Assembly: GCA_043228905.1 (NCBI GenBank)
Contig: JBHGNT010000004.1
Location: 16,864,001 to 16,928,000 of the forward strand
Reading direction: 5' to 3'
From: Azolla caroliniana
Taxonomy: Eukaryota; Plantae; Polypodiophyta
Length of the DNA: 64,000 bases
In this document: piece after piece, positions 398 through 61,856 of the stretch
Layout of the letters: the number at the start of each line of letters is the position of its first letter
How positions within the stretch are numbered: the stretch's first letter is position 1
Notes under the pieces: model-generated
The model's input: the letters and a program-made list of their open reading frames with translations, nothing else
The model's database searches: none
Told to the model about the DNA's origin: nothing
Translations under genes and position numbers: made by a program

Positions 398-521
398 TTT
401 GTACTGTCCTTCTGCACACACATGGCACCCTTAGCCCTCTCTGCTCTGCTCTGCTCTCCAGTTTCTCTCTGCCTATAATACACATGTTGAATCGAAGGAA
501 GTTGTCAGCGAAAGGAAGAGA

Positions 522-15600: not shown

Positions 15601-18600
15601 AGTGCATGAGATAGATGTGTATCCATATAAGAACTGGCAAGAAATCCATCCCGCAACACATGTAGAAAGAGTGCTTTCTAGTGGGCCATCTTCCTATGAA
15701 GAGATATTGTGCTGATCCATGTTTTTTGATATTCCAATTTAATGTTATCAGCTGGGATCACTCTATGCTTCACCCACACTCCCAAGTTCCATTTCGAGTT
15801 CCAAGCCCTCCAAATGGCTGATAATGCTTTCCATTTGTCCCACGTCTTCCATTGATATTTTGCCAACTCCAAGCTTGTCTGTGTTTATCCATAATCCACC
15901 TCCCATCTCAAGCATGCTGCCCATGCTTCGAAGTTCCCAACCTGTATTCCATCTTTGTGATGTTCCCAAGCCCCAATAAACTCCAAGTTGCCCTTGGGGC
16001 CCCACCCCCTCCCTGCCCCTCCATGACTTCTCTGGTGCCCTTGTCCCAATAAAGCCATTCTTTTTCGTGTTAGTCATGTTCAGTTGTGTCCAGTCCAAGC
16101 AAGCTATATTGGAGTGGGGCGAGTGTGTTTATATTAATGGCAACAATTATTGTCTCCATTTTTATCCAAATATTATGACCCAAGTGCCAATCTTGAGTAC
16201 CTTTGCTTAGGAGTCCCCAAATCTATTGGATACTGGTCACAGATCGGAATAATGCCTCAGTCACTATTGGGGCTGCTCCCATCTCATGCAGATTATATCG
16301 TGGGGCAGCAATATTTGCTCCTTATCATGCAGGCAATCATTGAGGCTAAAGGTCTCTTTACTGTCCAGTTTTGAGCCTAATGAAAGCTTAGTCTCCAGAT
16401 TTCTTTTGTGTAGAAAGAGAAAGATACATTAACGTCTTTTTTAAAGGCTAAAATGCCCTATATGACCAAACAACAGATTACATCTTAAAATATTGTTTTG
16501 TATTTGAGAACAAACCAAAATAAATGCAAACTAAAGAATCCCATTGTCCATACAGGTAAGATTCTCGCATAAAACGAAACATAGGTCTTCAAAAGATATC
16601 TTGCATAGGTCGATCTAGAATGGAGAGATCTCCGAAGCGAGGGAAGCACTTGTGATGGTGGAAGATAATGGCCTAAAGAAAGTTGTGATTGCTCTATGTC
16701 AATGAGCCTGTGTCATTCTATTGTCGTCCTTCAATAACATTTCCCTTTGTCTCTTGAGTCTAGCAAGAACAACCTGATATTCCATTACCTTGTATAGTGG
16801 GCCAAAGTCTGGTTAAAGAGGTAATGATACCCCCCTCTTATTTCATAACAAATAGTACAGTGACATTCTGTTCTTTAGATTCCACTCCTGATGACACAAT
16901 TGGCAAAATCGTTCTTCCAAGGTGTGCATGCATCAACCTCTAACTGATGTGAAGAGGTTCACAGATGTCATAGCACACTACGCAGCCCATGGAATAGATC
17001 TATGCCCATATAAGAGGGCCCCACAATAAATCCTTCCAAGCTATATTTGAATGGGGGTATTGCAATTCTGCTTATGCCATGTGCCTTGACCCCTTGTTGT
17101 GTTTCAGCATACCAACAATGATTAGTTCTGTGTTTAGCTAGTTGTTTTGATGGCATAAGTGCCAACCTTGAGTACTTTCATTTAGGGAGCTCCCATAGCC
17201 ATTGGATACCGGTCACTGATCAGAAAAATGCCTTGGTGATTATTCAGGCTGTGCCCATCTCTGCCAAAATTATATCATGGGATACTGATACTTTGCTCCT
17301 TATCACGTGGGCAATAATTAAGACTAAAGGTCTCGCCAAATCTACGTCCTTCTGCACAAGATGCACTCTATCATGTAGCTTCGTTTTGTATAACACAGCC
17401 ACTCCTCCCAAACCTCTAGTGCTTACCGGTGTCCGAGGTTGGGGACGACATATTGACTCCCATTCTATATTAAAGACCAAACAAGAGATTATATTCTAAG
17501 TGTTGTCTTGTCTTTGAGAACAACACATCAAAATAAATAAATGTTATCAATTAAAAAAAGTAAACAAGATAAAAAGAGACTAAAGCATCTTGTTACCGGT
17601 ACATATAAGTTTCTCAAATAAAATGTATTATAATTTTCCTCTTCATTTTCGGATATCCAATATGACCTATGTGACAAAAATTATAATATTTTCAGGTAAT
17701 ACATTTCAAAGTGAATTGTGAATCTTGATGTTCAAGAACTTTGCTAATAAACATTGCAATTAAGAGTGCACACTCTTTAACTATGGGAGAAATTCGTATG
17801 AGTACTGGGTTTGGTCAATGATGTGTTGGAAGCATAGTCGAATGTGATCAAAGGCAAAGCATTGGTTCAAAGTGTGATACCCAGACTACCAAACTTGTTT
17901 AGGGCAAAGTGTGCATGGTCAGTCAACTATTCTCATCACTTGTGCCCCAATACCCCGTCTCACATCATAGTGAGTGTGACCTAAGTCGTACGGAAGTAAT
18001 GGCTTCAAATGACAGGCAATGGAAAGGGTGCTTACATATATTGATGTGTGCAATCTCCCTGTGCGGTGAAGAACTTAGTTTTGTAGTTAGGTGCAACATA
18101 TGTAGTATAATGTGTGAAGCGTGAGCCTCCGGATTTTTCCCATGTCATGATACATTGGTGTTGCAAAAAGGCCTCATTCACAAAGGAATTGATTGATTCA
18201 TCATGAAGCAAATGTGTTGCTTCTCATCTTCCAAACCATTTTTCAATGTCTTGCAGCCAACCTGAACACAAAATTTTGCTTTTGTGTCTCTTGGATCTTT
18301 TTGCTTGTTTCCCATGTGATTCTAGGGAATCCAATGTGAGGAACTTTTTTGAACCTTAAGCATATATTCGACAACCCTGTCTATAGTCATGATCTTCCAA
18401 ACCATTCTTCAATGTCTTGCAGCCAACCCGAACACAAAATTTTGCTTTTGTGTCTCTTGGATCTTTTTGCTTGTTTCCCATGTGATTCTAGGGAATCCGA
18501 TGTGAGGAACTTTTTTGAACCTTAAGCATATATTCGACAACCCTGTCTATAGTCATGATCTCAATGGGAAGTGATATTGTTTTAAAAAAGTAGGAGGGTG

Positions 18601-20021
18601 TAAGCGTTTGTTTCTTCACTTGGAGAAACTTCATAAGGAAATGCTTTTGGACATTTTCAAACTCTTTACAAGTGAACTTAGGGATGTTACTGCCTCATAC
18701 TTCCACCCCATAAAGAAGCACTGGTTTCACCTGAGTGTCAAAAGTAGTTAGCTCTCAACACTTAATTTGGTCAATGATCCCAGAGATAGATAGATGTTTT
18801 TTTTAATGTCCATGGAAACTGATTAAGATCTATGAGAGAGATTTTATTATCTTCTTCAAAGGTCAAATATGACCTATGTATGAGTGTAATATTTTCACAT
18901 AATACATGAGAGAAAGAAAGAAAATATTAATGTCTTTTAAGATACCAAACAAGAGATTACATCTGAAGTGTTGTCTCATCTTTGAGAACAACAAATCAAA
19001 ATAAAATAAATATTACTTAGTAAATATAAAAGTAAATAAGATAAAAGAGAGGAAAGAATCTGGTTCTCGGAACATGTGAGATTCTCAAGTTAGATACATT
19101 ATAAATTTTGTCTTCAAAAGATCTCTAGCATAGTTAGAGAGAGAGAGACAATTTATATTCATTTTATTTTACAGCAGAACCGGTCATGTGTATCACCAAT
19201 ACTGAGTCAGGGAGAAGCATTAATTGACATAAAATTCAAGCGTTTGGCTTCAGAATGTGAGGCGACAAATGCTTCTTGTCATCAAAGCCTCATATATATT
19301 GGAGAACCCAAGGCTCTCTTTTATTCTCTGAAACTGACTGAATATAGGCCACGACAACTATATTCCGATTTCATTCTTTTATCTTTGTTTCAAAGCTTTC
19401 CAGATGTTGTCATGCGGCTACTTACATACACTTTTTCAATATCAGCAGCTATGGTGCTCTTGAATAGTGCTCCGGTATAGTCTTATTTATCTTTCATCTT
19501 CACTTACAGTAATGTGGTATGTCATGGTTGGTCCATCTACATGAAGAGTCAATTGTTTGTTGTGTTTGGGGTTTAGTGTTTCATTGTTGTATCCCAGGCT
19601 TTCTTATTGTTTAAGGGTTTCATCGATGAAAATGCCATTTTCGTTCATTTTTGCTTGCAAACTAATGTAGCTCATGCCAGTTCTTTCATCTAGTTGGGAA
19701 ATTGATTGTTTTGTGTTTAGGATTTTAGGGATTAAGATATCATCAATGGTGATAATATAGTCACATCTACTTTGTTTTGGATGTCTTCATGAATGCAAAT
19801 TTTTTGTTCTCATCTTTGCTTACAATAACATTGCTTGTGACCAGGTATTTTACCTAGATGGGGAGTCCATGGTTCGAGCATGGATCCAAATATCGTTCAC
19901 ATTCTGCAATATCTATATTCACCCGAACAAACAAAAGAAGATAATTCATATCTCTTTGATCATTGGTAGTATTGTGTGCGCTCTTTTCCTCGCATCTGGT
20001 GTTATCAACATGGTTTTATGA
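10641..20021 (+). CDS. S2P: Membrane-bound transcription factor site-2 protease (M50A metalloprotease), 10 exons
   Basis: Exons 10641-10723, 10807-10872, 11704-11773, 11893-11985, 12184-12287, 12452-12599, 12730-12810, 12948-13367, 19175-19474, 19845-20021, all GT-AG with compatible phases. Motifs HELGH (HExxH), PGAFV, LRIYSAGIWQN, PDZ-like SPLKGYLKPGD and LNSAPVFYLDG. Confidence 0.92.
13409..19135 (-). mobile_element. Stack of at least 8 truncated RTE-like LINE fragments (two families) filling S2P intron 8, all antisense
   Basis: Family-1 3' ends at about 13409, 13657, 16412, 17465 and 18910, with a further body piece at 15345-16400. Family-2 3' ends at about 17630 and 18785. Endonuclease-like piece GLGGVAVLYK at about 17340-17465. 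All match the copies at 7711-9192 or 21256-22215. Confidence 0.85.
18226..18561. repeat. 166-bp near-perfect tandem duplication inside a LINE fragment
   Basis: atcttccaaaccatt...ctatagtcatgatc starts at both 18226 and 18392. Confidence 0.9.
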
Positions 20022-21223
20022 TAATTGATCGTTGTGATCCTGGAAAAACCCCAATCATTATTACGTTTCTAATGCTAAATAATCCAGTAACCCCTCCCAT
20101 GAGGGTGATTGAGATTTTGGATGGAAACAATTCACCATGTCTTAATAGTTTCCTCTTTAGTTGAAAACTTTCCTTGAAAGTAAATCTTGTGGTGCATCAT
20201 CTGTGTTCAATGGCAAGGCACAATCCAGAGTGTTTATTGGTTCCTGAGTAAAGCCTGTAATGTAACATTGAGTGACATTGATCAGGTTTTCTTGTTTGTC
20301 CTTAGTTACCATGTGGTTCACCAATTAACCTAAGGCCCAGTTTTGTAAAGTATAAGCAAATTTATTACTCTTACTATTAACAATTTTATTATTCTTATCA
20401 CCAAAGCAATTGATTCAACAATCTTTTCATTGATGTTTCAATTCATAATTGGTAATGCTCTAATTCAAATTTATCTCAAAATCATTGCATTGTCTCTTTT
20501 GTGAGCCTTCCAATTATTTTTTGATGTGCAACTGATAAACAAAATGTTCAAATATAGATCATTGCTATATGACATTTTGCAAGATCTTTGGTAATGGAGT
20601 TTAGCAAAAGAGACCTCACATATTTCTAATGTGTTGAAATTGTCTTGCACTTGAATGATCCTTTGGAAATCTGGGAATCTAGCACGCTAGTGGAGGAGAT
20701 TTAGACCCTTATATACAGATTAAGAGTATACTTTGAGATTATATTCCTTTAATCGTAGTAAATTGTTGGCTTGCCTTATAGTGCTACCTATGCTTACCTC
20801 CTAGTTTTTGTTATTTTGAAATTAATCGTAGTTTGACTTTTACTATATGATGCACTTTGATGGACGGATAACCTTAAGTCTCATGGCTACTTGTCTTGCT
20901 TTTCTTGCAACCAAATTTGAATAGAGTCATGCCAAATCAGCATGGTGTTTTGCGAAATTTGAAAATCTGAAACAAGAAGTGTTCCTAAACTAACCAAAGA
21001 CAACTGAAAGCTAACTTTGGGCCAAGGGAACAATGTTGGGGGACACAACATATCGTACATATGTGCGTATCTATAATATATGGAGACGTAATGAATAAAT
21101 AATATGAAATGAATAGAGGAGAAACCACATCGGAGAAGGGTAAGCCTGAAGATTACACCAAAATCCATGGGGGGGGGCATTTTCTGCAATTCTAATTTCT
21201 TCCTTCCTTCTCTTCTTTTCCAT

Positions 21224-21255
<32 letters not shown>

Positions 21256-21258
<3 letters not shown>

Positions 21259-22215
21259 AATGATCTTTTTGACACTTTGGTGACCCCGGTTCTTCTCTAT
21301 GGGGTGGAAGTATGGGGCGGTAGCATCCCTAAATCTACGTGGAAAGAGTTTGAAAATATCCAAAAACATTTACTGACAAAGTTTCTACAAGTAAAGAAAC
21401 AAATACCCTACACCCTCCTCCCTGAGACGGGATCGCTTCCCATTGAAATCATGGCCATGGAAAGGGTTGTTGAATACATGCTTAAGGTTCAAAAAAGTCT
21501 CTCATATCGACTTCCTAGAATTGCATGGGAAGCAAGCAAAAAGATCCAAAAGACGCATAAAAGCAAAATTTTGTGTTCTGGTTGGATGCAAGATTTAGAA
21601 AAATGGTTTCGTAGATGGGATGCAAGACACTTGCTTCATGATGCGTCACTAGATTCCTCTGTAAATGAGGCCTTTTTGCAACACTAATGTATCATGACAT
21701 GGGACAAATGTGGTGGCTCACACTTCACACATTATACTACAAATGTTGCACCTAACTACAAACCATATTCTTTGTGGAACGGGGAAGCCATACACATCGA
21801 TACATGTTAGAGCCCATCTTGATATCTGCCATTCAAACCATTGCTTCCATGCAACTTAGCTCGCGCGCATTGAGATGTGAGACGGGGCGTTGGGGCACAA
21901 GTGATGAGAGTGGCCGACTATGCACACTTTGCCCTAAACAAGTTCAAGAGTCTAAGTATCACACTTTGATACAATGCTTTGCCTTTGATCATATTCGACC
22001 ATGCTTTCCACATCTCTTCGATTGAGCCCAATCCTTGCACGAATTTCTCTCACAACCACGATGTGCACTCTCGATTGCAGCATTCATTGGTAAAGTTCTT
22101 GAACATCGAGAGTCGCTACTCACCTTCACACGTATCACATGAAATGTAATATTTTTGGTCTCATAGGTCATATTTGACATCCGAAGATGATAATATAATA
22201 TATCTATCTATCTAT
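21256..22215 (+). mobile_element. 5'-truncated RTE-like LINE (family 2) with (TATC)n tail, inserted in a (CT)n microsatellite
   Basis: ORF pieces VTPVLLYGVEVWG, LSSRALRCETGRW and CTLC..ESKYHTLIQC. (CT)n lies on both flanks. Confidence 0.85.
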
Positions 22216-43398: not shown

Positions 43399-44400
43399 TG
43401 CTTTGGCAAAGTGGATTGTGGTGGCCTACAACAAAGAAGGATGCTCACGAATTCTGCAAACAATGCAACTTATGTCAGCGAATGGGCCAACCCACTGAAC
43501 AAGCCAGTATGCCTCACCAACCGGTCCTTCCATTAGAACCTTTCCAAAACTGGGGATTGGATTTCGTTGGTCCATTTAAACCAGCAACAGCCCGAACTGG
43601 CAATAAGTAGGTAATCATGGATCCGAAAAAACATTTGAAATTGGAAAACCGGTCCTCGTGTTTCAAACTCTGCTCGGTTGGATGCCGGGGAAACTTCGTT
43701 TTGGGTGGACCAGAACCTTCTGGATTATCAATGAATTCAATAGAACATTTCTGCTCGGCACTTTAGCAGGGGAAGTCGTACAAGCATGGGTTAATGGATT
43801 TCGATTAAAGCCATATCTCGGCCCGACGCCTCCCAATCCCTTCGCCAATCACCAACACGGTGGGAACCATCCTGTGGTAATTAGAACAGAAGATTTCGGG
43901 GCTGCCTCGCCCCAATCACGGTAATTACCATACCTACTACCCTGGATTGTATACTATCATTATGAAAAAAAAAGACCCACTCACTATTTAAAGAACATGC
44001 ATGCCACACGAGAAAAGAGAAAGTACAAACGGTTCCTAGGACGCGTGGTCCTTAAACTCCCAGTATGGCAGGGAAGATTCTGAATCTAGGGCACAAGGCC
44101 ACGTCTCAAGAACCAAGGCACATACAGAAAGGGAGCACCACAGGCGAAGCCCTCACTCTTGTAGAAATGCTCAAAGTATTCAAGCGTTCTCACCTTCTGC
44201 TCAGACACCCTCTCGCTCCCAAATCCCCTGCACAAAAGCTCGCTCTAGCTCTCCTTCTCCTTACTTCCATCACAACTCTTCCGCTCTCCTTCCCAGAACA
44301 ATGATTAGGAAGAATCGAGACACCATGAAGAAGATAACTCGTTGTCATTGATGATCAAGAATAATAAGGAGATGTGTTGTAGAAGAAGTGACCCTTGAGA
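43399..44400 (+). mobile_element. Gypsy integrase fragments plus 3' region, sister of the element at 53194-61856
   Basis: WQSGLWWPTTKKDAHEFCKQC, WGLDFVGPF and NGFRLKPY. The non-coding stretch 43985-44085 aligns with 57245-57300 plus 57931-57970. Confidence 0.8.
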
Positions 44401-48420: not shown

Positions 48421-48658
48421 GACGGAAGGAGGTCGAGTCAAACATTGATCTTTATGTCACCCTAACATCATATTCAGATGACGCTACATCGGATGTGGCC
48501 ACAATTCAAATTCAGCATGGCAAGGGCATAAGGTTGTGGATCCAAACACCGAATAAACACTTTTTCAGGTAGTTTTTATGTGAAATATAAATTAGTATCC
48601 TACTAACTAACATTGAGTGTGATATACCTACTCAAACTACATATTTCTATGCATCAAG

Positions 48659-48833
48659 GTACCATCTGACTTGTCAACGTCTAGATACTGCCCTTGACGT
48701 TGTCGCGTTGTTACGCGCGTGCGTGGAGAAAGGCGGGACCACGGGGGTCTTGGACTAGGGAGTGATGGAGCGTGGGAAGTCGTGCTTCACCGTTTCCGGG
48801 GCATCCCAGAAGCACACCGGAAGCAACCGAAGG

Positions 48834-48875
<42 letters not shown>

Positions 48876-50189
48876 TTAACACCGACTCACACACACACAC
48901 ACTCACACACGCACACGCACAGGCCAACCCGACTCACACCCTTAAGTACAGGAAACGCAGGAAAGGGGGAGCACCCGACACCAACAGAGATGCGAATATA
49001 CACAGACAGACGCAAAGGTATATATATAAATAAATAAAAAAGAATACATTCCCGGCTTCGAGCCGTTCCAAGGTAGGTTACAGTAGTCGTCAGGTGCCAA
49101 GCCGCCGTCGGGGAGCTCTTAGCTCGTCGCGCCGAGCGGGGTCTTGCACAGGAGGTCGAGCCAAAGCAAACCCTAAGCAAAACACGAAGGGGGAGAAGAA
49201 GGAGAAGAAGAAGAACCTAACTCTAAACCTAACGGTATACCCTCTAATGCAAAATGGGCAACCCTTTCACAAAGGGCATTCCCCTCCCTTTATAGAACAA
49301 GGAGAGGGATGCGTTACAATGTGGGATAAATCCCGACTTGACTACTCTTCGGCGCCATAAAGGCGCCCTCGATATTCACACTAAATGTACATGGGTGCGT
49401 ACACACGCCGCACCCCGCCGATGTAGCCAATGTTTCCCGGTTTCCGCCTCTGGCCGAAATTCTTCACGACAACGTTACCGAGTCAGATCTTGAGACCATG
49501 TGCAAGTTTCGTGAAATGGCATCGACATGGACTATGACCTGATTGACGTTGTTTATGGAGTACTTGTTGCTACCCAAGGTGACATAATGCTTCACTATCG
49601 TCGACCCACTATGGGTGGAGCTACACCAGTAGACGGTGAAGGGGCAAGCCATCCTTAGGAAGGTGGCTGGACGTGATTTTATGTTCATTCCGATCGTGCT
49701 TGACGGTCATTGGGTGTTGTGGACGAAGATGCGACAGAAAGTTTCTAAGCTTACTAGCAAAGTAGTCTTTTGCGATCCATTAAACAATGCGACGATGGAC
49801 AACATGCGGAGAATGGCAGAGTTGGCGATTCGGACCATTTCATCTAAACCGTCAAACCACACCATTGTGTCCGAGGGTCGACATCACGTATTGCACATCC
49901 CAACTCAGCCAAATTGTTGGGATTGTGGCTTTTATGTGATGAAGACTATCCAGATGTTGGTGGAGGAGTTCTAACGAGGATGGATATCTCCGACTTTTGT
50001 AAGTGTAATGGCAATGCCTTATTCATGTGGATTGTATATAGATGTGTTCTTATACATATTTGGTGTCAGGGCACAGAGATATGGTTCACCAAACGCGAAG
50101 TGGATTCACTTCAGATTCATGTGGACGAGTGGGCACAAAGGGTACTAGGATTTGCACCTGCGACCGGTGGCCCCATATTTGTTAAGTGA
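48659..50189 (+). pseudogene. Ulp1-like (peptidase C48) SUMO-protease pseudogene split by a solo-LTR-like insert
   Basis: FIPIVLDGHWVL...CDPL...QPNCWDCGFYV gives the His-Asp-Cys triad and oxyanion Gln. Removing 48701-49475 restores the frame LD|VTESDL. In-frame stops remain. Confidence 0.8.
48701..49471 (-). mobile_element. Solo-LTR-like element A (771 bp), 4-bp TSD ACGT
   Basis: acgt|TGTCG...TTCTTCACGACA|acgt. Minus-strand TATAAA followed by a purine run near 49290. Internal GA/CA microsatellites. Confidence 0.8.
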
Positions 50190-53100
50190 CAAGCTCAACA
50201 TTGACTGTGTAACACAATGCGTAAACCAGTGCGTAGAGTGGGTGCATAAAACAATACGCATAACGTGGTTGTATCGGTGCGTAAACCGAAAGGCCGTTAG
50301 TATGGTATTCCTCGTAAGGAATAATTTTGGGAGTTAGTGTAGGAGGCTCATTTATGAGCAGTGAAGTACGGTCAATACATGTATTAGCCTGATAGTCAGG
50401 GCTTGTATAAAAGGTGCTCACTGAGCACGAAGTATGTACAGAGTGTCATTATTTTGAAATTCAACTGAGTTGTCTGCTCTCTGTCTCTATTTGTCTCTCC
50501 ATCTCCATCTCTGGTTTTCTGTGTTTTACCAAACTGTCGTTCTCCAAACTGTGTACTCTTTGTTTCACATACGCTTCCACACATGTATTCTTCTACATGG
50601 TATCAGAGCACGAGGGTAAAGTCCTCTGCAACTGACAGAGACATAGTTGAGTTGTTATTCTTGGTTTTTGGAAAAGATAAGACAACAACATGGATAGAGG
50701 AATGGGAAGCTCGCTACCGACTGAGAAGCTCGACAGGAGCAACTACGCAACTTGGTCGTACAAGATGCACCAGAACCTGCTTGGTCATGGGTACTGGAGT
50801 TATGTCGAAGGAGCTAATGATACAACACCCAAATCGACACACAGGGATTTTTCGGCTTGGGAACAAGTAGCAAGCAAAGTTCTCTACTGCATTGCGTCCT
50901 GTGTGAGCAACCAGCTATTGAGCCATATTCGGGATGCCAAGACGCCAAAGGACACATGGGCGAATCTCAAGAAGATTTTTGCCGCTAGCACCACAACCAA
51001 GAAGCTTCAACTCAGGCAGGAGTTGAGCAATGTTCGACAACGAGATATGTCGGTGGCTGATTACACCTCCAAGATCAAAGAAATCTGCGACTCTCTCACC
51101 TCCTTCAATATGAATGTCGAGGAAGATGAGATGGTGCAGGTTTGTCTTGGTGGGTTAGCGTCAAAGTTTTGAGCGTTCCAAATGGCGGTCTGTACAAGGG
51201 AGAATACGCCTATGTTCTTCGAGCTTCAGTCAATGTTGCTCGTGGAGGAAAATCACGCGGGTGCGTAGACAAGTATGCACGCCGACGGCAAGATGATGTA
51301 CACAGAGGGAGATAGGCCCCGTGGTCGTGGTGGATGAGGTGGATCAGCGCATAATGGAGGTGGCCGAAAAGAGCTGAATGGACGGCATAATCGAAATGTC
51401 GAGAACATTTCTAAAACTCCTGGAAGTAGGGGGAGTCATGGCGGCGCCGGAAGCTAGCAAGAGAAGGCCGCGATAGAATGTTGGTAATATGGCAAGAAAG
51501 GCCACAAGGAGAGCGAGTACTGGAAAAAGAAAGCCGACTCAAACAAAGCCGGATGGAGCGGAAGAGACGTAGGAAGGCGTCAAAATTCGCACTACGTTAA
51601 GGGCTCTGAACGAGCCGGAAATGGATCGGGTCCTGCCATCGTAATGAAGCACAAGGCCAATTCAATGGCCGTGAACACCTCGAAATCGAATAAGGTGTGT
51701 TATGTTGATTCCGGAGCGTCAAATCATATGACGAGTCACGAGGAATGGTTCTCATACTTTCAGAAGCCGGAAAAGCAAGGGGCAGTCGAACTGGGAGATG
51801 ACACCCCGCATACCATCAAATATGTCGGTGAAGTTCCCCTCAGCCATGTCGGGCAGAAAGGGAAACACTTGAACGTGCTACACGTCCCGACAATAACGAA
51901 GAACCTAGTGTCGGTCGGACAGATCGTCGACCAAGGGATGCAGGTTCGATTCACGCATCTAGGGTGCTTCATAAAAGAGGAAGGCAAAGTAATCGTGTAA
52001 GGGCGCCGTGAAGGGATGATGTTTATCCTCGAAACCAACAGTGTGAACACCACTATGTTTGCAAAAGGGCAAAAGGTCGAGTCGGACATCGACCTCTGGC
52101 ATAAGCGGTTCGGCCATATTAACTTCCTGCGACTTCGTTAAGTGCAAACGAAGAACATTGTGTTTGGCTTGCCGAAATTTTGAGGCCAGAATGGCCAAGT
52201 TTACGAAGCTTGCCAGATGGGAAAACAACACCGACTTCCATGATTCCCCAATGAGCGTAATCGTAGTCAAAATCCGTTGGATTTGATCCATTCAGATGTG
52301 TGGGGTCTGGCACAGAACGTGAGTCTCAGTGGAAGCCGTTACTTTGTAACCTTCATTGACGACTTCACTCGGCACACATGGGTATGCACGATCGCGAAGA
52401 AGAGTGAAGTCTTCACATGTTTCCTGAAGGTGAAGAGCCTTGCGAAAAGGGAAACAGGGCGTAAGATCAAATGCCTACGGTCTGATGGCGGGAAGGAGTA
52501 TTTCTTCGACCAATTCACAAGTTATCTACAAAAGGAGGGAATTCAACGAGAATTCTCGTGTAGATACACGCTGTAGCAAAACGACATGGCCGAGCGGAAG
52601 AATCGCACAATCAAAGACGTGGCCAGGGCAATGCTTGAAGAGAAGCATATGCCGAAATTCTATTGGACTGAAGCCGTGAGGACGGCTATCTACCTGTAGA
52701 ATCGAACTTCTGCTAATGGAGGAGTGTCGCCACATGAATTGCATTTCGGGAAGAAGCCGAACTTCGCACACTTGAGGATTTTCGGTAGCATTGCATATGT
52801 GCATGTGCCGAAGGAAAAGAGAAGGACATTGGATGCCAAAGCCGAAAAGTGCATCTTAGTCGGCTATCCAAATGAGTTGAAGGGGTATAAGTGTTATAAC
52901 CCCCGAACAAAGGAAGTGCGCGTAAGTTGAGATGCCGTGTTCGACGAGTCCGCTTCGTGGTACTTGCCTTCCCCTCCAGTACCTCATGACTCCATTCCGA
53001 ATTCTGAAAAAGAAGTCAGCGAGGCTGAGATGCCTCCCCATGATGAGGAAATGGAACTCTAAGAGAGAGTCCGATCTCATTTCGGCCAAGTGGGCCGAAT

Positions 53101-53193
53101 GAAGGGTTGAGCCGAATTGACCGACCTATTGAAGAGACGGCGAGTAGTGAAGACTCAGTTGTGATGCCCCCGCGTAAAGAACCGAGGAGACGG

Positions 53194-53650
53194 TGTTGTC
53201 CAGAGGACAGAAATGTAAAATTAGGAAATTAGCAAACGCTGAGTCCGAGTATCACGGGCCACCGACGGCTCGGCTGTGTATTAGGGGAAAAGTTATTTAA
53301 ACGAGGACCAGTACCTCAGAGTGGGGAGATAAGAAAAATATAGGCGGAAGCACTAGCTTAATCCTTCGTAATTAGATAAACTTGTAAGGTCACCGGCCAT
53401 AGGCCGTGTTCTGTAATCTTTGCTGTCATAGTAATATATCTGATTTGTGCCCATTTTGCTGTATGAGTCTGTGCTTTGATCCATACCTATGAGTTCAACG
53501 TCGCCCACGTCTATCAAGACCTCGCTAGTGTTTTCTGTTTGAGCCTTGTATCTCTCTCGACGCCTCTGTTACGAGCCTTCACGTACCACACCCTTGAAGA
53601 CCGATAGCCACAGATCTATCGAAGGTGTTCACCCAAAGGAACGGGTAACA
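53194..53650 (+). repeat. 5' LTR of the Gypsy element
   Basis: About 97.5% identical to 61400-61856, with TG..CA ends. Confidence 0.95.
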
Positions 53651-53793
53651 CAATTTGGCACGCCCGGTTACATCTGTGAGTGTACAGCGAACTTCGTTGA
53701 AGGTAACCAACAGCCGCTGTTACGGCGCCCTCTCGCACCACGAGGTCTCGGCCACCCGCCCGACGCCCTGAGCCAGTCGAAGGAACTTCCGAC

Positions 53794-55530
53794 TTGGCGG
53801 TTACTGACCAATCCTTTCCCAATCAATCGGAGGCTTGTCCAGTGCAATCCTCGCCACCGGACACTCGATCGCGAGTTGATTCACCACCAAAACCCCCGTC
53901 GAGCCCTCCAGAGGTCAATCAACTGGAACTAAACCCTTTTCCGGTGCTACCAGAAGACCCACAGTACGACATCATGTCGTACCCATACCCACGATACAAC
54001 GACGGACCAGACGCGGAGTCACACGTCCGTGCCTTCATATCCACGTGGCAGGCTAACCACTCCACGCACCGCCTCACGCCGGCCGAAATCGATGCCTCGA
54101 AGATTGCCGAGTTCACACTCTCCCTCGATGGACCGGCCGCACGATGGTACTCTCGCCTCGAAATAGGAGAGGCCACCACTTTCCAAATCGTGCGCACAAA
54201 GTTCCTTGAACTTTTTCATCGCGAGGTGCCTAAATGGGAACTGCTCCGGCAATTCTTCTCTATATGCCAGGAACCGCACGAAACGGTCGTGCAGTTCACG
54301 ATCCGGTTCCAGGATCTCTATAGACAAGTGGCCGATGATGTCTCGGCACAACATATACCAAACACTTTCCTATCCAGTTTACGAGAGCCTCTACGAACGA
54401 CTCTCGCACTTACAAATTTCGCCAACCATACGATCGAACAAGTCATAGCGCGCGTTCTCGCCCTCGATCGGAACCGACACGGCACGGCCTTCTCGATGAC
54501 ATCCTTGCAAAACGCTCTTCCCCAAGAGGACAATCGTTTTCGCCAAGCCCTCCAATGCACTGCGTGTTCAAGATCAGGGCACCTGGCCCTCGAATGTCCC
54601 CACCGACCACAGTGTCCGATCTGTCAGTCTCGAGCTCACACGGTCGAGCAGTGCGAATATAATATGTTGAACCGCACAACGGCGGCACCGGCCCGCCAGA
54701 TAGAGCCACGAAATACATACTCTCGGCAGGACGAGCGATATGTCTACCGAGACTAGGATAATGACCAACCGCGATCCCCGGATCGACGGCGCCGAGACGA
54801 CGACTATTGACGTGATAACCGCCGTGATCATTACCGCGATGACCGGCACGACGATTATGCCCGATCTAATGACGATCACGATGACCGGTATGACCGACGG
54901 AACTCACGCATTGATCGGCGAAACGGCAACCGCAACACACGCAACAATAGAAGACCTAATGACAACCGCCGACGGGACGCTCCTCAAAATGACCAGCGCA
55001 ACTCCAACGCACCTCGGAACAACCCACCACCAAACGAGACCGAGAATCAACAACAACAGCTTTCACACACAGATCGAGCGGACACCACCAGCTCGGCCAA
55101 CGTGACATGTTTTAAATGTAATCAACCAGGCCACTACGCCACGCAATGTCCGACAACCAACCGTGGCAAGGCACCCGCGGTGAACAATATCATGGCCGAT
55201 GTTCAAACGGTCACTACCCGGAGTAAAGTGCAGACTACTCAGTGGCAAATCCAGGATGAAGTACGTCAGGCAGCAAAAGAATGGATCGACACGGCCAATA
55301 AAAATAAGGTTGTACGCATGCAAACTGACATGAGAGACGGGCCCAGTGAAGTACCACAAACCTCGGCACCATCCACGTCGTCGGAGGACGACCAGCTATG
55401 GGATGTTCTTACCAACTCCCGCATCTCGCTGCCCCTACATAAACTGCTACCCCTCATGCCGAGATTTCGGGACACCCTGGCGGCACTCCAAGCCAATACT
55501 AAGCCTGTGACGCCACCGGTACACCTCTCA
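53794..55530 (+). pseudogene. Gypsy gag with three zinc-knuckle motifs, one internal stop at 54754
   Basis: Capsid-like LDGPAARWY and QEPHETVVQF..RF. Knuckles CTACSRSGHLALEC, CPICQSRAHTVEQC and CFKCNQPGHYATQC. Confidence 0.8.
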
Positions 55531-55531
55531 C

Positions 55532-57115
55532 GTGGATCACTTGGCCCTTCTTTATTTGGTCAATAAACAAGCCCTCACCGGACGGTTGGCTCGATGGATG
55601 CTCCTACTACAAGAGTTTGATTTCCAGATTCAGCATCGACCCGGGGTACAACATGCCGTCGCCGACTACTTGAGCCGTCTTGAGTCAGGGGAACCGGCGA
55701 AAACAACGTACGACGAGCTACCGGACGCCAACCTATTTAACCTGACCACGATACCAGACGATAACGAAGATGAATGGATCACGGAGATGACCCATTTTCT
55801 CACTACCGGTGTACCTCCTGAGCACATGACCCTTGACACGAGAAAACGCCTAGCAATGTGTAGCCGGAATTTTTGCCTCGTCTCGGACATTCTCTACCAC
55901 AAAGGCTCGGACGACATATGGCGCCGAGCGATTTGGCAATTCGAGAAGAATGTCGTTCTTCAGGAAGCCCACCTGGGAGTAGCTGGGGGGCACTACGTCG
56001 GGGATTCCACGGCAAGGAAAGTTTGGCAAAGTGGATTGTGGTGGCCGACAATGAAGAAAGACGCTCACGAGTTTCGCCGGCAGTGCGATTTGTGCCAACA
56101 ACTGGGGCAACCAATGGAACAGTCACGGATGCCACACCAACCGATTCTTCTGTTGGACCCATTTCAAAAATGGGGTTTGGATTTTGCAGGCCCTTTCAAA
56201 CCACCCGCGGCCCGAACAGGGAATAGGTATATTATCGTTGCCACAGATTACTACACCAAATGGGTCGAGGCTAAGGCACTCCGAGATAACACGGCGGCAT
56301 CCACAGCTAAATTTGTGTACGAGCACCTCTGGTGCCGTTACGGATGTCCAATCGAGCTCGTTAGTGACCAAGGTGGGCACTTCATCAATCATATAATACG
56401 TGAGCTTACACACTACTACGCGGTGGTGCACAAGAAAAGCACACCATACTACCTGCAGGCGAACGGCTTGGCGGAATCGACCAATAAAATCCTCCAAACC
56501 ATACTGAAGAAGATCGTCAATGAAAACAGGACCGACTGGGATGACAAACTCCAGAGCGCGTTGTGGGCGTATCGTACGACTTTCAAAACAAGCATCCAAT
56601 CGACCCCCTTTCGAATGGCGTTCGGGTTAGAAGCCGTAATGCCCGTCGAGTTCCAAGTCCCGAGCCTCCGAGTTCAAGTCAAAGCACGGCTCCCCGAGGC
56701 CCAATCCAAGCAATACCGGCTGGAACAACTCCTCGAACTCGGCGAAGATAGGATAGAGAGTATGGCCCAGCTCGAGCAACGCCAACGGCAACGCAAGGCT
56801 TTCGTGGATCGACATCGACACGGGCTGGAGAAGGAGCTCACCATCGGCAAACCAGTTCTTCTTTTTCAAACACGACTCGGGTCAATGCCGGGAAAATTAA
56901 GATTTCAGTGGACCGGTCCATTTTGGATTATCGACGAGTTCAACGGGACGTTCCAGCTCGACACATTTGCCGGCGACACTGTCAAAAGCTGGGCCAATGG
57001 TTTCCGACTTCGACCATATCGAGGGACTACACCAACCAACCCGTTTACCAAGCCACACGGCACAAACAAGTTTTGGGAGGCCACCACGGAGGAGGCCACG
57101 TGTCCACCTGAATAA
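55532..57115 (+). CDS. Gypsy RNase H C-terminus plus integrase (open frame, no chromodomain)
   Basis: DHLAL..RLARWMLLLQEFDF, HHCC zinc domain, WGLDFAGPF, SDQG, QANGLAE and WTGPF. Confidence 0.88.
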   Translation: MDHLALLYLVNKQALTGRLARWMLLLQEFDFQIQHRPGVQHAVADYLSRLESGEPAKTTYDELPDANLFNLTTIPDDNEDEWITEMTHFLTTGVPPEHMTLDTRKRLAMCSRNFCLVSDILYHKGSDDIWRRAIWQFEKNVVLQEAHLGVAGGHYVGDSTARKVWQSGLWWPTMKKDAHEFRRQCDLCQQLGQPMEQSRMPHQPILLLDPFQKWGLDFAGPFKPPAARTGNRYIIVATDYYTKWVEAKALRDNTAASTAKFVYEHLWCRYGCPIELVSDQGGHFINHIIRELTHYYAVVHKKSTPYYLQANGLAESTNKILQTILKKIVNENRTDWDDKLQSALWAYRTTFKTSIQSTPFRMAFGLEAVMPVEFQVPSLRVQVKARLPEAQSKQYRLEQLLELGEDRIESMAQLEQRQRQRKAFVDRHRHGLEKELTIGKPVLLFQTRLGSMPGKLRFQWTGPFWIIDEFNGTFQLDTFAGDTVKSWANGFRLRPYRGTTPTNPFTKPHGTNKFWEATTEEATCPPE

Positions 57116-57300
57116 GGACTCACCCACCTTCTTGAAATTAATAAAACTAGTAGTAGGTAGGATTAACCATAGTTTAGCTACACCTACACCACCCACCTAG
57201 GCACCCACAATTTTAGGAGCACCCCTCGCCACCACTCATTTAGTACCTATTTAAGCACATGCAAAGCACTAGAAGCACCCCACTCACCTTCAGGACACGT

Positions 57301-57926
57301 TGTCGAGGTATTCCTCGCGGATGCGTGGAATGAGGCAGGACCTCGGGGGTCCTGTACCGAAGAGCAAGAAAGAAAGGAGAAGAGACCCACTACGTGCGAG
57401 CGTAGATCCACAGGGACACGGCCCTTCGACACAAAGACGCGAGTGGGACAGCGACACAGAGAGACACGAATGTATGTATGTATTATCAAAGACAAAACAA
57501 CAAGAAGCCCAAAGTCGGTTACAACCGAACAGGCCGGCGAACAGATGCCGATGCCTGTTCGTAAACGCGCAGAAAGAAAGGAGTAGGTTGGAGGTGCTGC
57601 CGGAAGCACTCGGGCATTCCTCAGAGCAGCGCGAGCCTCCCGAAACCTGCACAGAAAGAAGCTATGGAGTTTGGAAGAGAGAGAAGCCTTCGGCCCACAA
57701 TCCGACAGCACTTCGTCCTCTCCTCCTTCGCCCTCCTCGTCTCCCTCCTTTTATAGGCAAGAAGGGAGCCGTTTCCTATTAACTCCCTACCTACCGAATC
57801 TACCTACCTAGGATCTTCCATGTCCCTAATTCTCTCTTATGTACAACATAAGGCGTACGTGCATGAAGAGCCGGTTCCTATGCTCCGGCGCACCGATTCC
57901 GCTTGTGGACGGTTTTCTTCACGACA
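57301..57926 (-). mobile_element. Solo-LTR-like element B (626 bp), 4-bp TSD ACGT
   Basis: acgt|TGTCG...TTCTTCACGACA|acgt. The empty site is seen in the sister Gypsy copy at 44038-44050. Confidence 0.82.
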
Positions 57927-58256
57927 ACGTGGTGCTAGTCACTTATTATGGCACCCACGACTCAGAATCTTCAGGATTCGCTTTAGGCACAAAACCCTAG
58001 GAATAAGTTACTAAAACCGTTTCCAAAATGTAGCACAGACACAGAAGTTCATTATCAATCCCCATCTCCATCACTCTCAAGCTCAGAAACCCCGTCTCGC
58101 CCTCATCACGCTAAACGCTCTTGCTCTCAAGCCCTCTTTCGCTCTCATAACCCCTCTGCTGGACTTCCCCTTCCTGCTGTTCCTCCTGTGTCTCGCCCTC
58201 GCCTCCTCACTCTTCGTCACGTTTCCACACAGTCGAACCCCGTCTCCATCTCCACC

Positions 58257-61200
58257 ATGCCTCTTACCGCTTCAACAGAAACCCACGCCTGGCTCTAGGA
58301 ACGAGGAATGGGCGGTTACCTGAAGATCATCGATGCCCCCACGCACCCAGATGCCCAAGGTGTGGCTAAACGTATAACTCCCGAAGCCATCACCAACAAC
58401 GTGCTTCGGGTTGTTTTGGACCTACAACGGGGAGGGGACCATGAGGTCGACATACCCTTGGCATCAAAGATGAAGGTGTACTTCGGTGAGTACTCAGCCT
58501 TAGGGAAGGCATATCGCACGTATGGCAGTCCCAACAAAGCTTTCGGGGAGATTGCTCGTATATTAATGGAGTATGCGTTCGTGCATACGAACCCAACGAG
58601 CATGCCGCAAAACAAGGCAGCCATCATCATCAGTGCGTATGAAGTAAATAGAATCGATTGGGGAATCATCACAGGCGAGGGACTCCGTGCCGCCTTAGCT
58701 TCATTTCAGTCCGGTAAGAAGATGTTGTCTTTTCTTACCCACTTTTTGATGGTTCTATACCCACCCTCTTCTCTTCCTTCCCCTCGCACACTCACGTCCC
58801 CACCACCACCACGAAGGCAGAGAGAGAAATTCGTTGCCATCAGCCATGAAGCATGGGAGGAGCCCACATCGCCTTCACCTCCTGCCGCCGACCAAAAGCC
58901 CGCATCTGCACCACCACCCACCCAACCCCAACAAAAAAGGGCAGTTTCCGAGACCTGCCAAGAATGGGAGGAGGAGGTAGCCGCGGAAGACAACACGGCC
59001 GATGACGTCACCATTCGACAGCCAACGTCACGCCCCTCGGTGACGTCCCCAGGACCTAGCCCACGCCCCAACACACAGCAGGTTGCACCACCACGACCCC
59101 AGAAAAGGAAGCAGGCGGAGGAAACGACACTACCGGCCCTGGAACCCCAAACACAGCCAAGCAAGAGAAGACGACTCAACCGCGAGTCCTTGGAAGAACA
59201 GAAAGAGCCACAACAAGAGCAAGCCTTAGTTGTCAGACAGAGCAACCTGGCCATCATCACTGATCTTGGAGGATGAAGTCCTCGGGTATAAGGACCTCCT
59301 CGCGGAGGCTTATGAATTTAGTGCGCTCCTACGCCTCGGTACGACATTCGAATTGGTCGACTTCCTCGTCAGAGCCCAAGTCGCGGCAGCCGCTCGAATG
59401 GCGGAGGAGCACGCCGAAACAAAAATGATTCAACGCGCGCTAATAGGTGAAATTGAGCCCAGGAGGACAGGGCTTTACAAAAAATCGGGAGGAAGAAGCA
59501 GGCAAAACATGCCGCTCTGCTCATGGAGGTCCCCGAGTTGAACACGGCCCTTATCGAGGCATATCGGGAACTGGATCGCACTACGCGGGCAGCCAAAGAC
59601 ATGGCCCAAAAGATAAAAATAGCCCAAAAACAGGCTAAGATGGCTACAGAATTATGGCACGCTGCGAACCAGAAGCTGGCAGCCTGGGAGCAAAACCGGC
59701 CGGAACAACAACTCTTGAGCCTTCCGGTCACGACCACCGAGGCCCTCCCAGCGCCTCCACACATAACAATGATGGATGAAAGCACCATCACCGACTCAAT
59801 CCTGACGGTGCAGGCCAGTACACAAACGGACTCGTTACAAATGGTCGATGCCTGCACAACAACCGAGGCGCCCACGCCCATGGAGAAGACCGAGATACCA
59901 CCACCTCGTGCACCCAAGGAGGTGGCGACCCAGACAGAACCCCCGCTCCGGGATTACCGTGCGGACCTGAAAGAAGAACAACGACGAACCGAGAGACACG
60001 AACAACGACATCAAGAGGCGATGGCTCGCCTAAAAGAAGAAGCTTCCAAGCAGATGGCCGAGATGAGAGCCCAGGCCGACCAAAGGATACACGAGCAGAA
60101 CGAAGCACTGGGCCAGGTACAAGCGCAAGCCGCGGGCAAAGAAGCCGAACTCAAAAGCAAGCTGGAGGAATACGCAGCCACAGTGGTGAAGAAAGAGAAG
60201 GAGGTTCTAGACCTACAGGCCGCGCTCGACAATGCGAAAGACTGGAACCATCGGCAGGAGGAAAGAAATCGCCAACGGGAGGAGAGGATGAACGTGGAGA
60301 ATGCCGAGCTGCAGAGTCAGCGTACGACCCTTAAAGAGATGGCTGACGAGTTTTTCATCAAATGCAAGCTACTTTCAGAGCAAAAAGACGCATTATTCGA
60401 TTCCTACTTCGCCCTACAAGAAGAGAGAATCGTCGAACGGGAACAAATCCGGGCCACGTGTCAAAAAGAACGGGAGCAGGCCACCGAAGAACTCACCAAG
60501 CATTACGAGCAGGGTCTCCAGCTCGTAACCGCGGATGCAAAGAACACTCAAGCCATCTATGAGCTAAGAACACAGAAGATTCAGGCCGAGGTCGACGGCT
60601 TAAAACAGGAATTAGCAGCCATCCGAGCACAGCCCGGCATGGGTGAGACACGCATCAGAATACTAATCGAGAAACAGCGCCAACACCTTACCAAAAAGGT
60701 CGAGGAAACATTAAGTCGCGCAGGAGACGAATGGGCAGCCCAAGCTGCCGAATTGCATATTTTACGCGTCGACGCCGAGAACCAACGGAAGGAGGGCCGC
60801 GGCTTCTACAAAATGGACGAAGCCAGCATACAAAACCTGCGTGCAGATTAAACCGAGGATTACCAGTCCTTGGCAAAATCTCACACCACGGCAATCGAGA
60901 AAATAATGGAGGACTTCAATGACGGTCAGATGTTGTTTCGCCTGGAAGCAGAAGCCTTCGAACGAGAACGACTCGCAGCCATCCCCACCAGCCCTCCAAC
61001 GGCCACAGAGCAGAAGGAAGAACCTTCCAGCAAGGAGATCACGGACACGGCACAGGAGGAACTTGCCCCAGCCAACAGACATCCCATGGACGCCCACACG
61101 GTACCAGATTCAGTCGAAGTAAAGGTCAGCGCCCTCGAACCCACACCCCCACCAGAAGAATCGGCCGCACCTGAGGCAGACGTCCAAGAAGATATGACAC

Positions 61201-61301
61201 CCCCGAACCAAACTCAACCCCCCGCACCGACAGTCCAACCAGACCACCCTGCCACCACCCCGAACCCCGAAAGCATGCTCAACATCTTAAAGGAGGAATG
61301 A
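58257..61301 (+). pseudogene. Extra 3' ORF of the Gypsy element (~1000 codons, broken by 2 frameshifts and 2 stops): globular N-domain, Pro-rich linker with NLS-like motifs, long coiled coil
   Basis: CCACCATG at 58257 is in frame with 58308-59276. The reading continues in 59230-59541, 59523-60851 and 60852-61301. Confidence 0.75.
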
Positions 61302-61399
61302 AACGAGGATCGCGCCTAAAAGGCAATTTTTGTCATATTGTTAGTATTTTGTAAGTTGTGGGTCCGACAGACAAGGTCCTGTCCCACGGGCGTGTCAGG

Positions 61400-61856
61400 T
61401 GTTGTCCAGAGGACAGAAATGTAAAATTAGGAAATTAGCAAACGCCGAGTCCGAGTATCACGGGCCACCGACGGCTTGGCTATGTATTAGGGGAAAAGTT
61501 ATTTAAACGAGGACCAGTACCTCAGAGTGGGGAGAGAAGAAAAATATAGGCGGAAGCACTAGCTTAATCCTTCGTAATTAGATAAACTTGTAAGGTCACC
61601 GGCCATAGGCCGTGTTCTATAATCTTTGCTGTCATAGTAATATATCTGATTTGTGCCCATTTTGCTGCATGAGTCTGTGCTTTGATCCATACCTATGAGT
61701 TCAACGCCGCCCACATCTATCAAGACCTCGCTAGTGTTTTCTGTTTGAGCCCTGTATCTCTCTCGACGCCTCTGTTACGAGCCTTCACGTACCACGCTCT
61801 TGAAGACCGATAGCCACAGATCTATCGAAGGTGTTCACCCAAAGGAACGGGTAACA
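61400..61856 (+). repeat. 3' LTR of the Gypsy element
   Basis: Matches 53194-53650. Confidence 0.95.

What the first reader, a model, noticed from the sequence alone, without database searches (positions are those of the whole stretch)
48697..57930. Two different LTR-like elements both inserted at ACGT with a 4-bp duplication: candidate sequence-specific plant retroelement lineage
Seen: elements A (48701-49471) and B (57301-57926) differ in length and internal sequence but share termini TGTCG...TTCTTCACGACA, orientation and a minus-strand TATA box. Both are flanked by ACGT on each side. The 4-bp TSD has two internal checks: removing A plus one ACGT restores the Ulp1 frame, and the sister Gypsy shows B's empty site (aggacgcgtggt at 44038 vs aggacacgtggt). 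The reconstructed targets are TGACGT and CACGTG, which are bZIP/bHLH G-box-type cores. Known: plant LTR elements normally make 5-bp TSDs with little sequence specificity (the other two measurable LTR inserts here have 5-bp TSDs), whereas palindromic 4-bp targets occur in Drosophila errantiviruses such as ZAM (CGCG) and in Ginger transposons. Inference: an integrase family that targets ACGT and could hit G-box promoters. This rests on only two insertions.
Basis: partly seen in the sequence, partly recalled or inferred. Interest (0 to 1): 0.8.

Follow-up and report, generated by a model that had tools for sequence, protein, structure and literature searches.

The report
CpG-targeting Phygy-type retrotransposon remnants
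The two inserts are lone end-repeats of a plant jumping-gene group with thousands of copies in this genome that nearly always sit on a CG pair (ACGT in only about a quarter of cases), a habit already described for the moss Phygy lineage, to which they likely belong.

Summary
Observation confirmed, interpretation narrowed. A (48701-49471) and B (57301-57926) are minus-strand solo LTRs with true 4-bp ACGT duplications: uninterrupted paralogues of both host repeats carry a single 4-mer (14 of 14 each). They belong to one Ty3/gypsy clade with at least 5,366 LTRs. The target is NCGN, not ACGT: of 3,122 LTR starts that do not follow the polypurine tract, 2,677 follow CGN, 837 follow ACGT and 333 follow CACGT. 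Of 58 paired ends, 36 are exact 4-bp duplications, all CG-centred; none is 5 bp. B's family encodes Gag-protease plus RT-RNase H-integrase (about 7 kb, tRNA-Trp primer site, no chromodomain or archaeal RNase H); A's family keeps only a Gag part. This matches REXdb's Phygy lineage (4 bp, NCGN, tRNA-Trp; PMC6317226), already reported in liverworts and ferns. A tree with the reference sequences was not possible. G-box promoter targeting is not supported. Still open: whether the integrase senses CpG methylation. The scan noted NCGN duplications before, in a fungal genome (e1-10582392, unchecked). New member of a known kind.

The parts
48697..48700 (.). Target-site duplication of A, left copy (ACGT)
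   Evidence: single copy in 14 of 14 paralogous empty sites
48701..49471 (-). Solo LTR A (771 bp) of the Gag-only, likely non-autonomous family; no primer site or purine tract beside it
49289..49294 (-). TATAAA box of LTR A, 178 nt from its 5' end
49472..49475 (.). Target-site duplication of A, right copy (ACGT)
48591..48700 (+). Host repeat, coding frame upstream of A; the same frame is continuous across the site in uninterrupted paralogues
49633..49971 (+). Host repeat, Ulp1-type protease (Peptidase_C48) segment downstream of A; multi-copy repeat
57297..57300 (.). Target-site duplication of B, left copy (ACGT)
57301..57926 (-). Solo LTR B (626 bp) of the Pol-coding, about 7-kb family
57750..57755 (-). 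TATAAA box of LTR B, 172 nt from its 5' end
57927..57930 (.). Target-site duplication of B, right copy (ACGT)
53194..61856 (+). Unrelated host Gypsy element in whose 3' non-coding part B sits (LTRs 97.6% alike; its integrase is 26% identical to the CpG clade's)

Best explanation
A and B are solo LTRs, likely left by recombination between the two LTRs of full elements, from two families of one high-copy Ty3/gypsy clade that sits on 4-bp CG-centred targets and likely belongs to the Phygy lineage. Shown: 4-bp duplications with a central CG, T avoided at the first and A at the last position, ACGT the commonest form; a tRNA-Trp primer site and a purine tract; B's family codes Gag-protease and, in the -1 frame, RT-RNase H-integrase; A's family keeps only the start of Gag. 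Inferred: A's family is moved in trans by the Pol-coding families, with which it shares LTR tips, primer site and purine tract; Pol is made by a -1 ribosomal frameshift at GGAUUUU; the integrase cuts with a 4-bp stagger, needs a sharp bend at a central pyrimidine-purine step as foamy-virus integrase does, and narrows that step to CG by base contacts, most plausibly from the clade-conserved loop between the first two strands of its C-terminal domain. Targets are then any CG in a favourable context, which in this genome often means other transposons.
For: Genome-wide exact counts: 5,366 LTR starts, 2,244 after the purine tract, so 3,122 others; of these 2,677 follow CGN, 2,541 VCGB, 837 ACGT, 333 CACGT, 2,953 any YRN; reversed-pattern controls 0-1. 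Background NCGN is 2.8% in the window and 6.3% in insertion flanks. Paired ends: 36 of 58 exact 4-bp, all CG-centred; 14 with one mismatch, 13 of them transitions (9 at the central CG); 0 of 58 exact at 5 or 6 bp. Both families do it: NCGN at 11 of 12 A-type and 36 of 45 B-type outer ends. Two further Trp-primed families with Pol about 63% identical have ACGG and GCGC duplications, while unrelated LTR elements nested in the same stretches gave 5 bp (2 exact, 1 with a mismatch, 2 unclear, of 5). Primer site complementary to tRNA-Trp(CCA) genes of this genome (4 of 4 loci checked, of 62 matches). Pfam RT, RNase H and integrase, no chromodomain or second RNase H at E<=0.1 in 3 of 3 Pol proteins; DUF4100 in ORF1. 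Named relatives are Riccia proteins at 48-66%; they group with this clade at SH-aLRT 99 in a quick RT-RNase H tree of 44 rows. Phygy: 4 bp NCGN 100%, tRNA-Trp 81%, no extra domain. Central YR and avoidance of T first/A last are general for 4-bp integrases (PMC4422553 section 6). The integrase model (pLDDT 89) matches PFV and Ty3 intasome chains.
Against: No Physcomitrium Phygy sequence could be placed in the tree, so membership rests on features and on closeness to liverwort proteins. Unnested Pol-coding copies are 7.0-7.3 kb, under the moss range of 7.7-10.0 kb. 8 of 58 pairs differ at more than one TSD base, two of them with LTRs 99.7-100% alike (recombinants or assembly chimeras; not resolved). 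169 of the 3,122 starts follow neither CG nor another YR step. The RNA after the slippery site folds no better than shuffles (z 0.0). The base-reading residues are inferred from alignment only; an acidic residue sits where retroviral integrases keep a small one. Host group not established by my calls.
Confidence: 0.85

Rival explanations
1. An ACGT-specific integrase that hits G-box/bZIP promoter elements.
For: ACGT is the commonest target, 31% of NCGN ends against 5.6% of NCGN sites in the window, 5.6-fold; C is enriched just outside the duplication (42%).
Against: 73% of outer ends are not ACGT; CACGTG 3 of 36 exact targets; both window targets lie in multi-copy transposons; 13 of 57 outer flanks match the clade itself after removing 5 self or flank matches. 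Promoter overlap was not measured genome-wide.
Confidence: 0.04
2. A separate non-chromovirus lineage (for example TatI, also 4 bp and tRNA-Trp, or an unnamed sister of Phygy) that shares or converged on NCGN targeting.
For: TatI has 4-bp TSDs (100%) and tRNA-Trp (75%) in the same table; the elements are shorter than moss Phygy; next relatives after Riccia are fungal and Chara proteins at 37-42%.
Against: TatI carries an archaeal RNase H in 100% of members; none was detected here. NCGN is reported for Phygy alone.
Confidence: 0.1
3. ACGT (or NCGN) is part of the element ends, as in a Ginger-like DNA transposon with short inverted repeats.
For: ACGTTGTCG...CGACAACGT forms a 9-bp inverted repeat at both window copies; Ginger1 has CCGG/CCGT 4-bp TSDs and TG termini (PMC2836005 passages).
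Against: The 4-mer varies among copies, is absent on the inner side of LTRs where primer site and purine tract lie, and is present once at empty sites; the elements code RT and RNase H.
Confidence: 0.01

Closest known systems
Phygy lineage of non-chromovirus Ty3/gypsy elements (REXdb; Neumann et al. 2019, PMC6317226: passages, section 9, Additional files 4 and 5 read; files 1 and 3 too large to read)
   Same: 4-bp NCGN duplication, tRNA-Trp primer site, RT-RNase H-integrase order, no chromodomain or archaeal RNase H, coding region filling almost the whole interior.
   Different: 7.0-7.3 kb against 7.7-10.0 kb in moss; here the motif is resolved to VCGB with ACGT first; a two-frame layout with the break between protease and RT (listed as ND for Phygy); a Gag-only partner family. 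Phygy is already named in a liverwort (PMC12885004, passages) and in ferns (PMC13477047, one passage).
Ginger1 DNA transposons (PMC2836005, passages)
   Same: Gypsy-type integrase with GPY/F motif, TG termini, 4-bp CG-centred duplications (CCGG 75%, CCGT/ACGG 24%).
   Different: Cut-and-paste elements with 40-270-bp inverted repeats and no RT; ACGT is not their main target.
ZAM of Drosophila (PMC2527525, abstract; PMC3276498, passages)
   Same: LTR element with a 4-bp duplication and a CG-rich target; specificity shown to lie partly in the integrase.
   Different: Target CGCGCg; errantivirus.
Prototype foamy virus and Ty3 integrases (PDB 4E7K, 7Q5B; PMC4422553 abstract and sections 6 and 14; PMC4005685 passages)
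   Same: Fold (E 1e-22 and 1e-19); for PFV a 4-bp stagger, a central YR step, T avoided first and A last.
   Different: PFV only favours YR (about 63% above random across four viruses); this clade is 86% CG. A glutamate aligns with PFV Ala188 and the C-terminal loop that holds PFV Arg329 is longer.
TR-GAG non-autonomous elements (name recalled; search listing only)
   Same: Two LTRs, primer site, purine tract and Gag without Pol, as in family A.
   Different: Family A keeps only about 200 residues alignable to its partner's Gag at 33-43% identity; no protease match.

Membership tests
Phygy (REXdb) | Clade in RT/RNase H/integrase trees with Physcomitrium Phygy elements | not testable with these tools
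   Reference FASTA too large to read; no Physcomitrium-named protein among the listed hits. Indirect: groups with Riccia proteins, apart from the window's other Gypsy.
Phygy (REXdb) | 4-bp target-site duplication | tested here: met
   36 of 58 pairs exact at 4 bp, 14 with one mismatch, 0 exact at 5 or 6 bp; empty sites.
Phygy (REXdb) | NCGN target motif | tested here: met
   2,677 of 3,122 outer 5' ends; 36 of 36 exact duplications.
Phygy (REXdb) | tRNA-Trp primer-binding site | tested here: met
   TGGTGAACCCGACGTGAA after 5' LTRs; matches tRNA-Trp(CCA) genes, 4 of 4 loci checked.
Phygy (REXdb) | No chromodomain, no archaeal RNase H, no extra ORF | tested here: met
   Pfam at E<=0.1 on 3 Pol proteins; ORF2 ends about 75 nt before the 3' LTR.
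Phygy (REXdb) | Length 7.7-10.0 kb (descriptive, moss only) | tested here: not met
   Unnested Pol-coding copies 7.0-7.3 kb. The paper calls size of little weight for classification.
TatI (REXdb) | Archaeal RNase H domain in Pol | tested here: not met
   No second RNase H by Pfam.
Chromovirus (Galadriel, Tekay and others with some 4-bp TSDs) | C-terminal chromodomain | tested here: not met
   No Pfam hit; Pol ends shortly after the GPY-type domain.
Ginger1 | 40-270-bp inverted repeats, transposase without RT | tested here: not met
   Direct LTRs of 587-867 bp (35 measured) and RT/RNase H present.
Non-autonomous Gag-only element (family A) | No RT, RNase H or integrase between the LTRs | tested here: met
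   tblastn of Pol: no hit in 9 of 9 A-type loci and none in 10 of 11 further stretches; the one hit is a nested element of another family on the opposite strand.

The most novel reading that the evidence does not exclude
The integrase reads methylated CpG directly, so the clade steers itself into silenced, repeat-rich DNA by a DNA mark instead of a chromodomain, and this CpG-reading integrase is an ancient trait shared by Phygy, its fungal relatives and perhaps Ginger1.
Probability: 0.15. Interest if true: 0.75.

Novelty: new member of a known kind. Interest (0 to 1): 0.3.

Why it matters
Strong sequence choice is rare among plant LTR elements; Neumann et al. name Phygy as the one exception, from 186 moss elements, and give only 'NCGN'. 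My ten literature searches found no study of how it works. This genome holds about 3,100 readable target half-sites and young copies (LTR pairs up to 100% alike), enough to ask whether a plant integrase prefers methylated or unmethylated CpG. The specificity itself is in print, so the finding is a well-sampled new case, not a new system.

Tried and rejected
ACGT as part of the termini: rejected. G-box rule: rejected. In-window sister site: too diverged to prove much. Placing the host by the window's PPR protein failed: best hits 22-29% identical; cluster look-ups of the closest Pol relatives gave no organism names. A careful RT-RNase H tree did not finish, so the quick tree is cited; the integrase tree in that call timed out and was redone by FastTree with 24 of 45 rows. 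Metagenome relatives at 66-83% integrase identity share the tRNA-Trp site (L191-L195), but none of the 82 loci examined gave both outer flanks of such an element, so their duplications and those of fungal-type relatives could not be read. No hairpin signal above shuffles after the slippery site. No RNA holder listed for this genome's element. Two poly(A) runs of a related organism (X21, X22; about 12-13% of each read) gave 326 and 202 reads along the element on both strands, too few to separate element transcripts from read-through or DNA. Atlas search of the Gag part gave only generic Gag-type clusters. Supplements of PMC7466625 were listed, not opened; they and Additional files 1 and 3 of PMC6317226 may bear on the Phygy assignment.
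Full report
1. Observation. Searches of the window's genome (G000, 523 Mb) with the right flanks gave close uninterrupted paralogues of both host repeats. For B all 14 examined carry one 4-mer at the site (11 ACGT, 2 ACAT, 1 ATGT); for A all 14 do (12 ACGT, 2 ATGT). The duplication is therefore 4 bp and the ACGT is host DNA. A interrupts the coding frame of a multi-copy repeat with a Ulp1-type protease; B lies in the 3' non-coding part of an unrelated Gypsy element.

2. What A and B are. Both hit many full-length copies, 83-90% alike for A and 93-94% for B among the best 40 scored. Most copies have, on one side, a primer site TGGTGAACCCGACGTGAA or a purine tract, so A and B are LTRs on the minus strand; in the window they have neither and matching duplications, so they are solo LTRs. 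The primer site is complementary to the 3' end of tRNA-Trp(CCA) genes of the same genome. Thirty-five measured 5' LTRs span 587-867 bp in several subfamilies with the same tips. Pol-coding copies are 7.0-7.3 kb with two frames: about 710-726 codons (Gag-like, DUF4100, protease) and about 1,167 codons (RT, RNase H, integrase). The frames overlap at GGATTTTTAG, kept in 25 of 28 loci (some loci overlap each other), which suggests a -1 frameshift; the RNA behind it folds no better than shuffles. A-type elements are about 4.6-5.3 kb when unnested and match only the first 220 or so residues of ORF1 at 33-43%; Pol was absent from 9 of 9 loci and from 10 of 11 further stretches, the exception being a nested element.

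3. The target. An exact 16-letter LTR start occurs 5,366 times; 2,244 follow the purine tract. Of the other 3,122, 2,677 (85.7%) follow CGN, 276 more follow another pyrimidine-purine step, 837 (26.8%) follow ACGT and 333 (10.7%) CACGT; 2,541 of the 2,677 are VCGB. These counts miss copies with a mutated start and include some LTRs whose purine tract has decayed. Background NCGN is 2.8% of window positions and 6.3% of flank positions. For paired ends I used 34 pairs from 97 of the first 100 matches on contig C1 and 24 from the best-hit searches (A and B included): 36 of 58 are exact 4-bp duplications, all CG-centred (14 ACGT, 4 each CCGT, ACGC, ACGG, CCGG, 6 others); 14 differ at one base, 13 by a transition; 8 differ more; none is an exact 5- or 6-bp duplication. 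Two more distant Trp-primed families gave ACGG and GCGC, and unrelated elements in the same stretches gave 5 bp where readable. Drawing ACGT twice has a chance near 7%. G-box hexamers are 3 of 36 exact targets. Thirteen of 57 outer flanks match the clade itself, and flanks are CpG-richer than the window (observed/expected 1.05 against 0.67).

4. Mechanism. Shown: 4-bp, CG-centred, near-palindromic target choice across families. From the literature: integrases with a 4-bp stagger favour a flexible central YR step and avoid T first and A last (PMC4422553, section 6); PFV Ala188 and Arg329 touch target bases, Arg329 from the loop between the first two strands of the C-terminal domain (PMC4005685, passages). 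The predicted integrase (pLDDT 89, pTM 0.78) matches PFV and Ty3 intasome chains. A glutamate aligns with PFV Ala188; the D-R-G-E-L stretch and a Q-H...R-K-F loop in the C-terminal domain are 90-100% conserved in 42 near relatives and, apart from D, G and K, variable in 20 distant ones. Inferred: the V...B rule is general intasome geometry and the narrowing of YR to CG comes from base contacts by that loop. Whether methylation matters is open: the target CG is decayed in 3 of 14 and 2 of 14 paralogues, which suggests these repeats are methylated, but says nothing about the state at insertion.

5. Known relatives. Neumann et al. [quoted passage not shown] Every feature I could test is met except length. 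The named nearest proteins are from Riccia and group with this clade at SH-aLRT 99 in a quick tree, with fungal and Chara proteins outside; the window's other Gypsy falls well apart in the integrase tree. The reference sequences could not be read, so membership is likely, not shown. TatI is excluded by the missing archaeal RNase H. Phygy is already named for a liverwort and for ferns, so the host group does not change the verdict; earlier notes call this genome a likely fern (e1-10617911, e1-10599039; not tested here). Ginger1 and ZAM are analogues.

6. Verdict. A real feature, correctly seen, that generalises to CpG-centred targeting by a Phygy-type clade. The ACGT/G-box reading is a small-sample effect. 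New member of a known kind; interest 0.3. The boldest reading left open, an integrase that reads methylated CpG and shares that trait with fungal relatives (an unchecked note, e1-10582392, reports NCGN duplications in a fungal genome), has about 15% probability.

Noticed in passing
window 53651-53680 and 61340-61399: The host Gypsy of B has a tRNA-Arg-type primer site after its 5' LTR and, where a purine tract would be, a sense copy of the same tRNA end 2 nt before the 3' LTR (tRNA identity taken from earlier notes); this is the lineage described in e1-10598439 and related notes.
   Followed up: partly
L118:3059-3070 and 27 other loci: ORF1 and ORF2 of the CpG clade meet at a conserved GGATTTTTAG, placing a likely -1 frameshift between protease and RT instead of between Gag and protease.
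   Followed up: partly
window 9236-9747 (+): Decayed fragment 31-54% like the protease region of the CpG clade's ORF1, inside the repeated 7.7-19 kb region.
   Followed up: no
window 435-2969 (+): 844-codon PPR frame whose best database hits are only 22-29% identical.
   Followed up: partly
G000:C1:7222673 and C1:7869657 (L130, L134): Copies with LTRs 99.7-100% alike but different NCGN 4-mers on the two sides; recombination between copies or assembly chimeras.
   Followed up: no
G000:C8:17.80-17.82 Mb, C16:4.99-5.11 Mb, C5:10.11 Mb: Clusters of tRNA-Trp-like 3' sequences at about 0.9-1.3 kb spacing, possibly tandem tRNA gene arrays.
   Followed up: no
L019 (G000:C10:15809446-15810980): Two A-type LTRs head to tail with a short purine-tract piece between them.
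   Followed up: no
window 17640-22205: Long inverted repeat arms, 77-87% complementary, around a 2.5-kb core.
   Followed up: no
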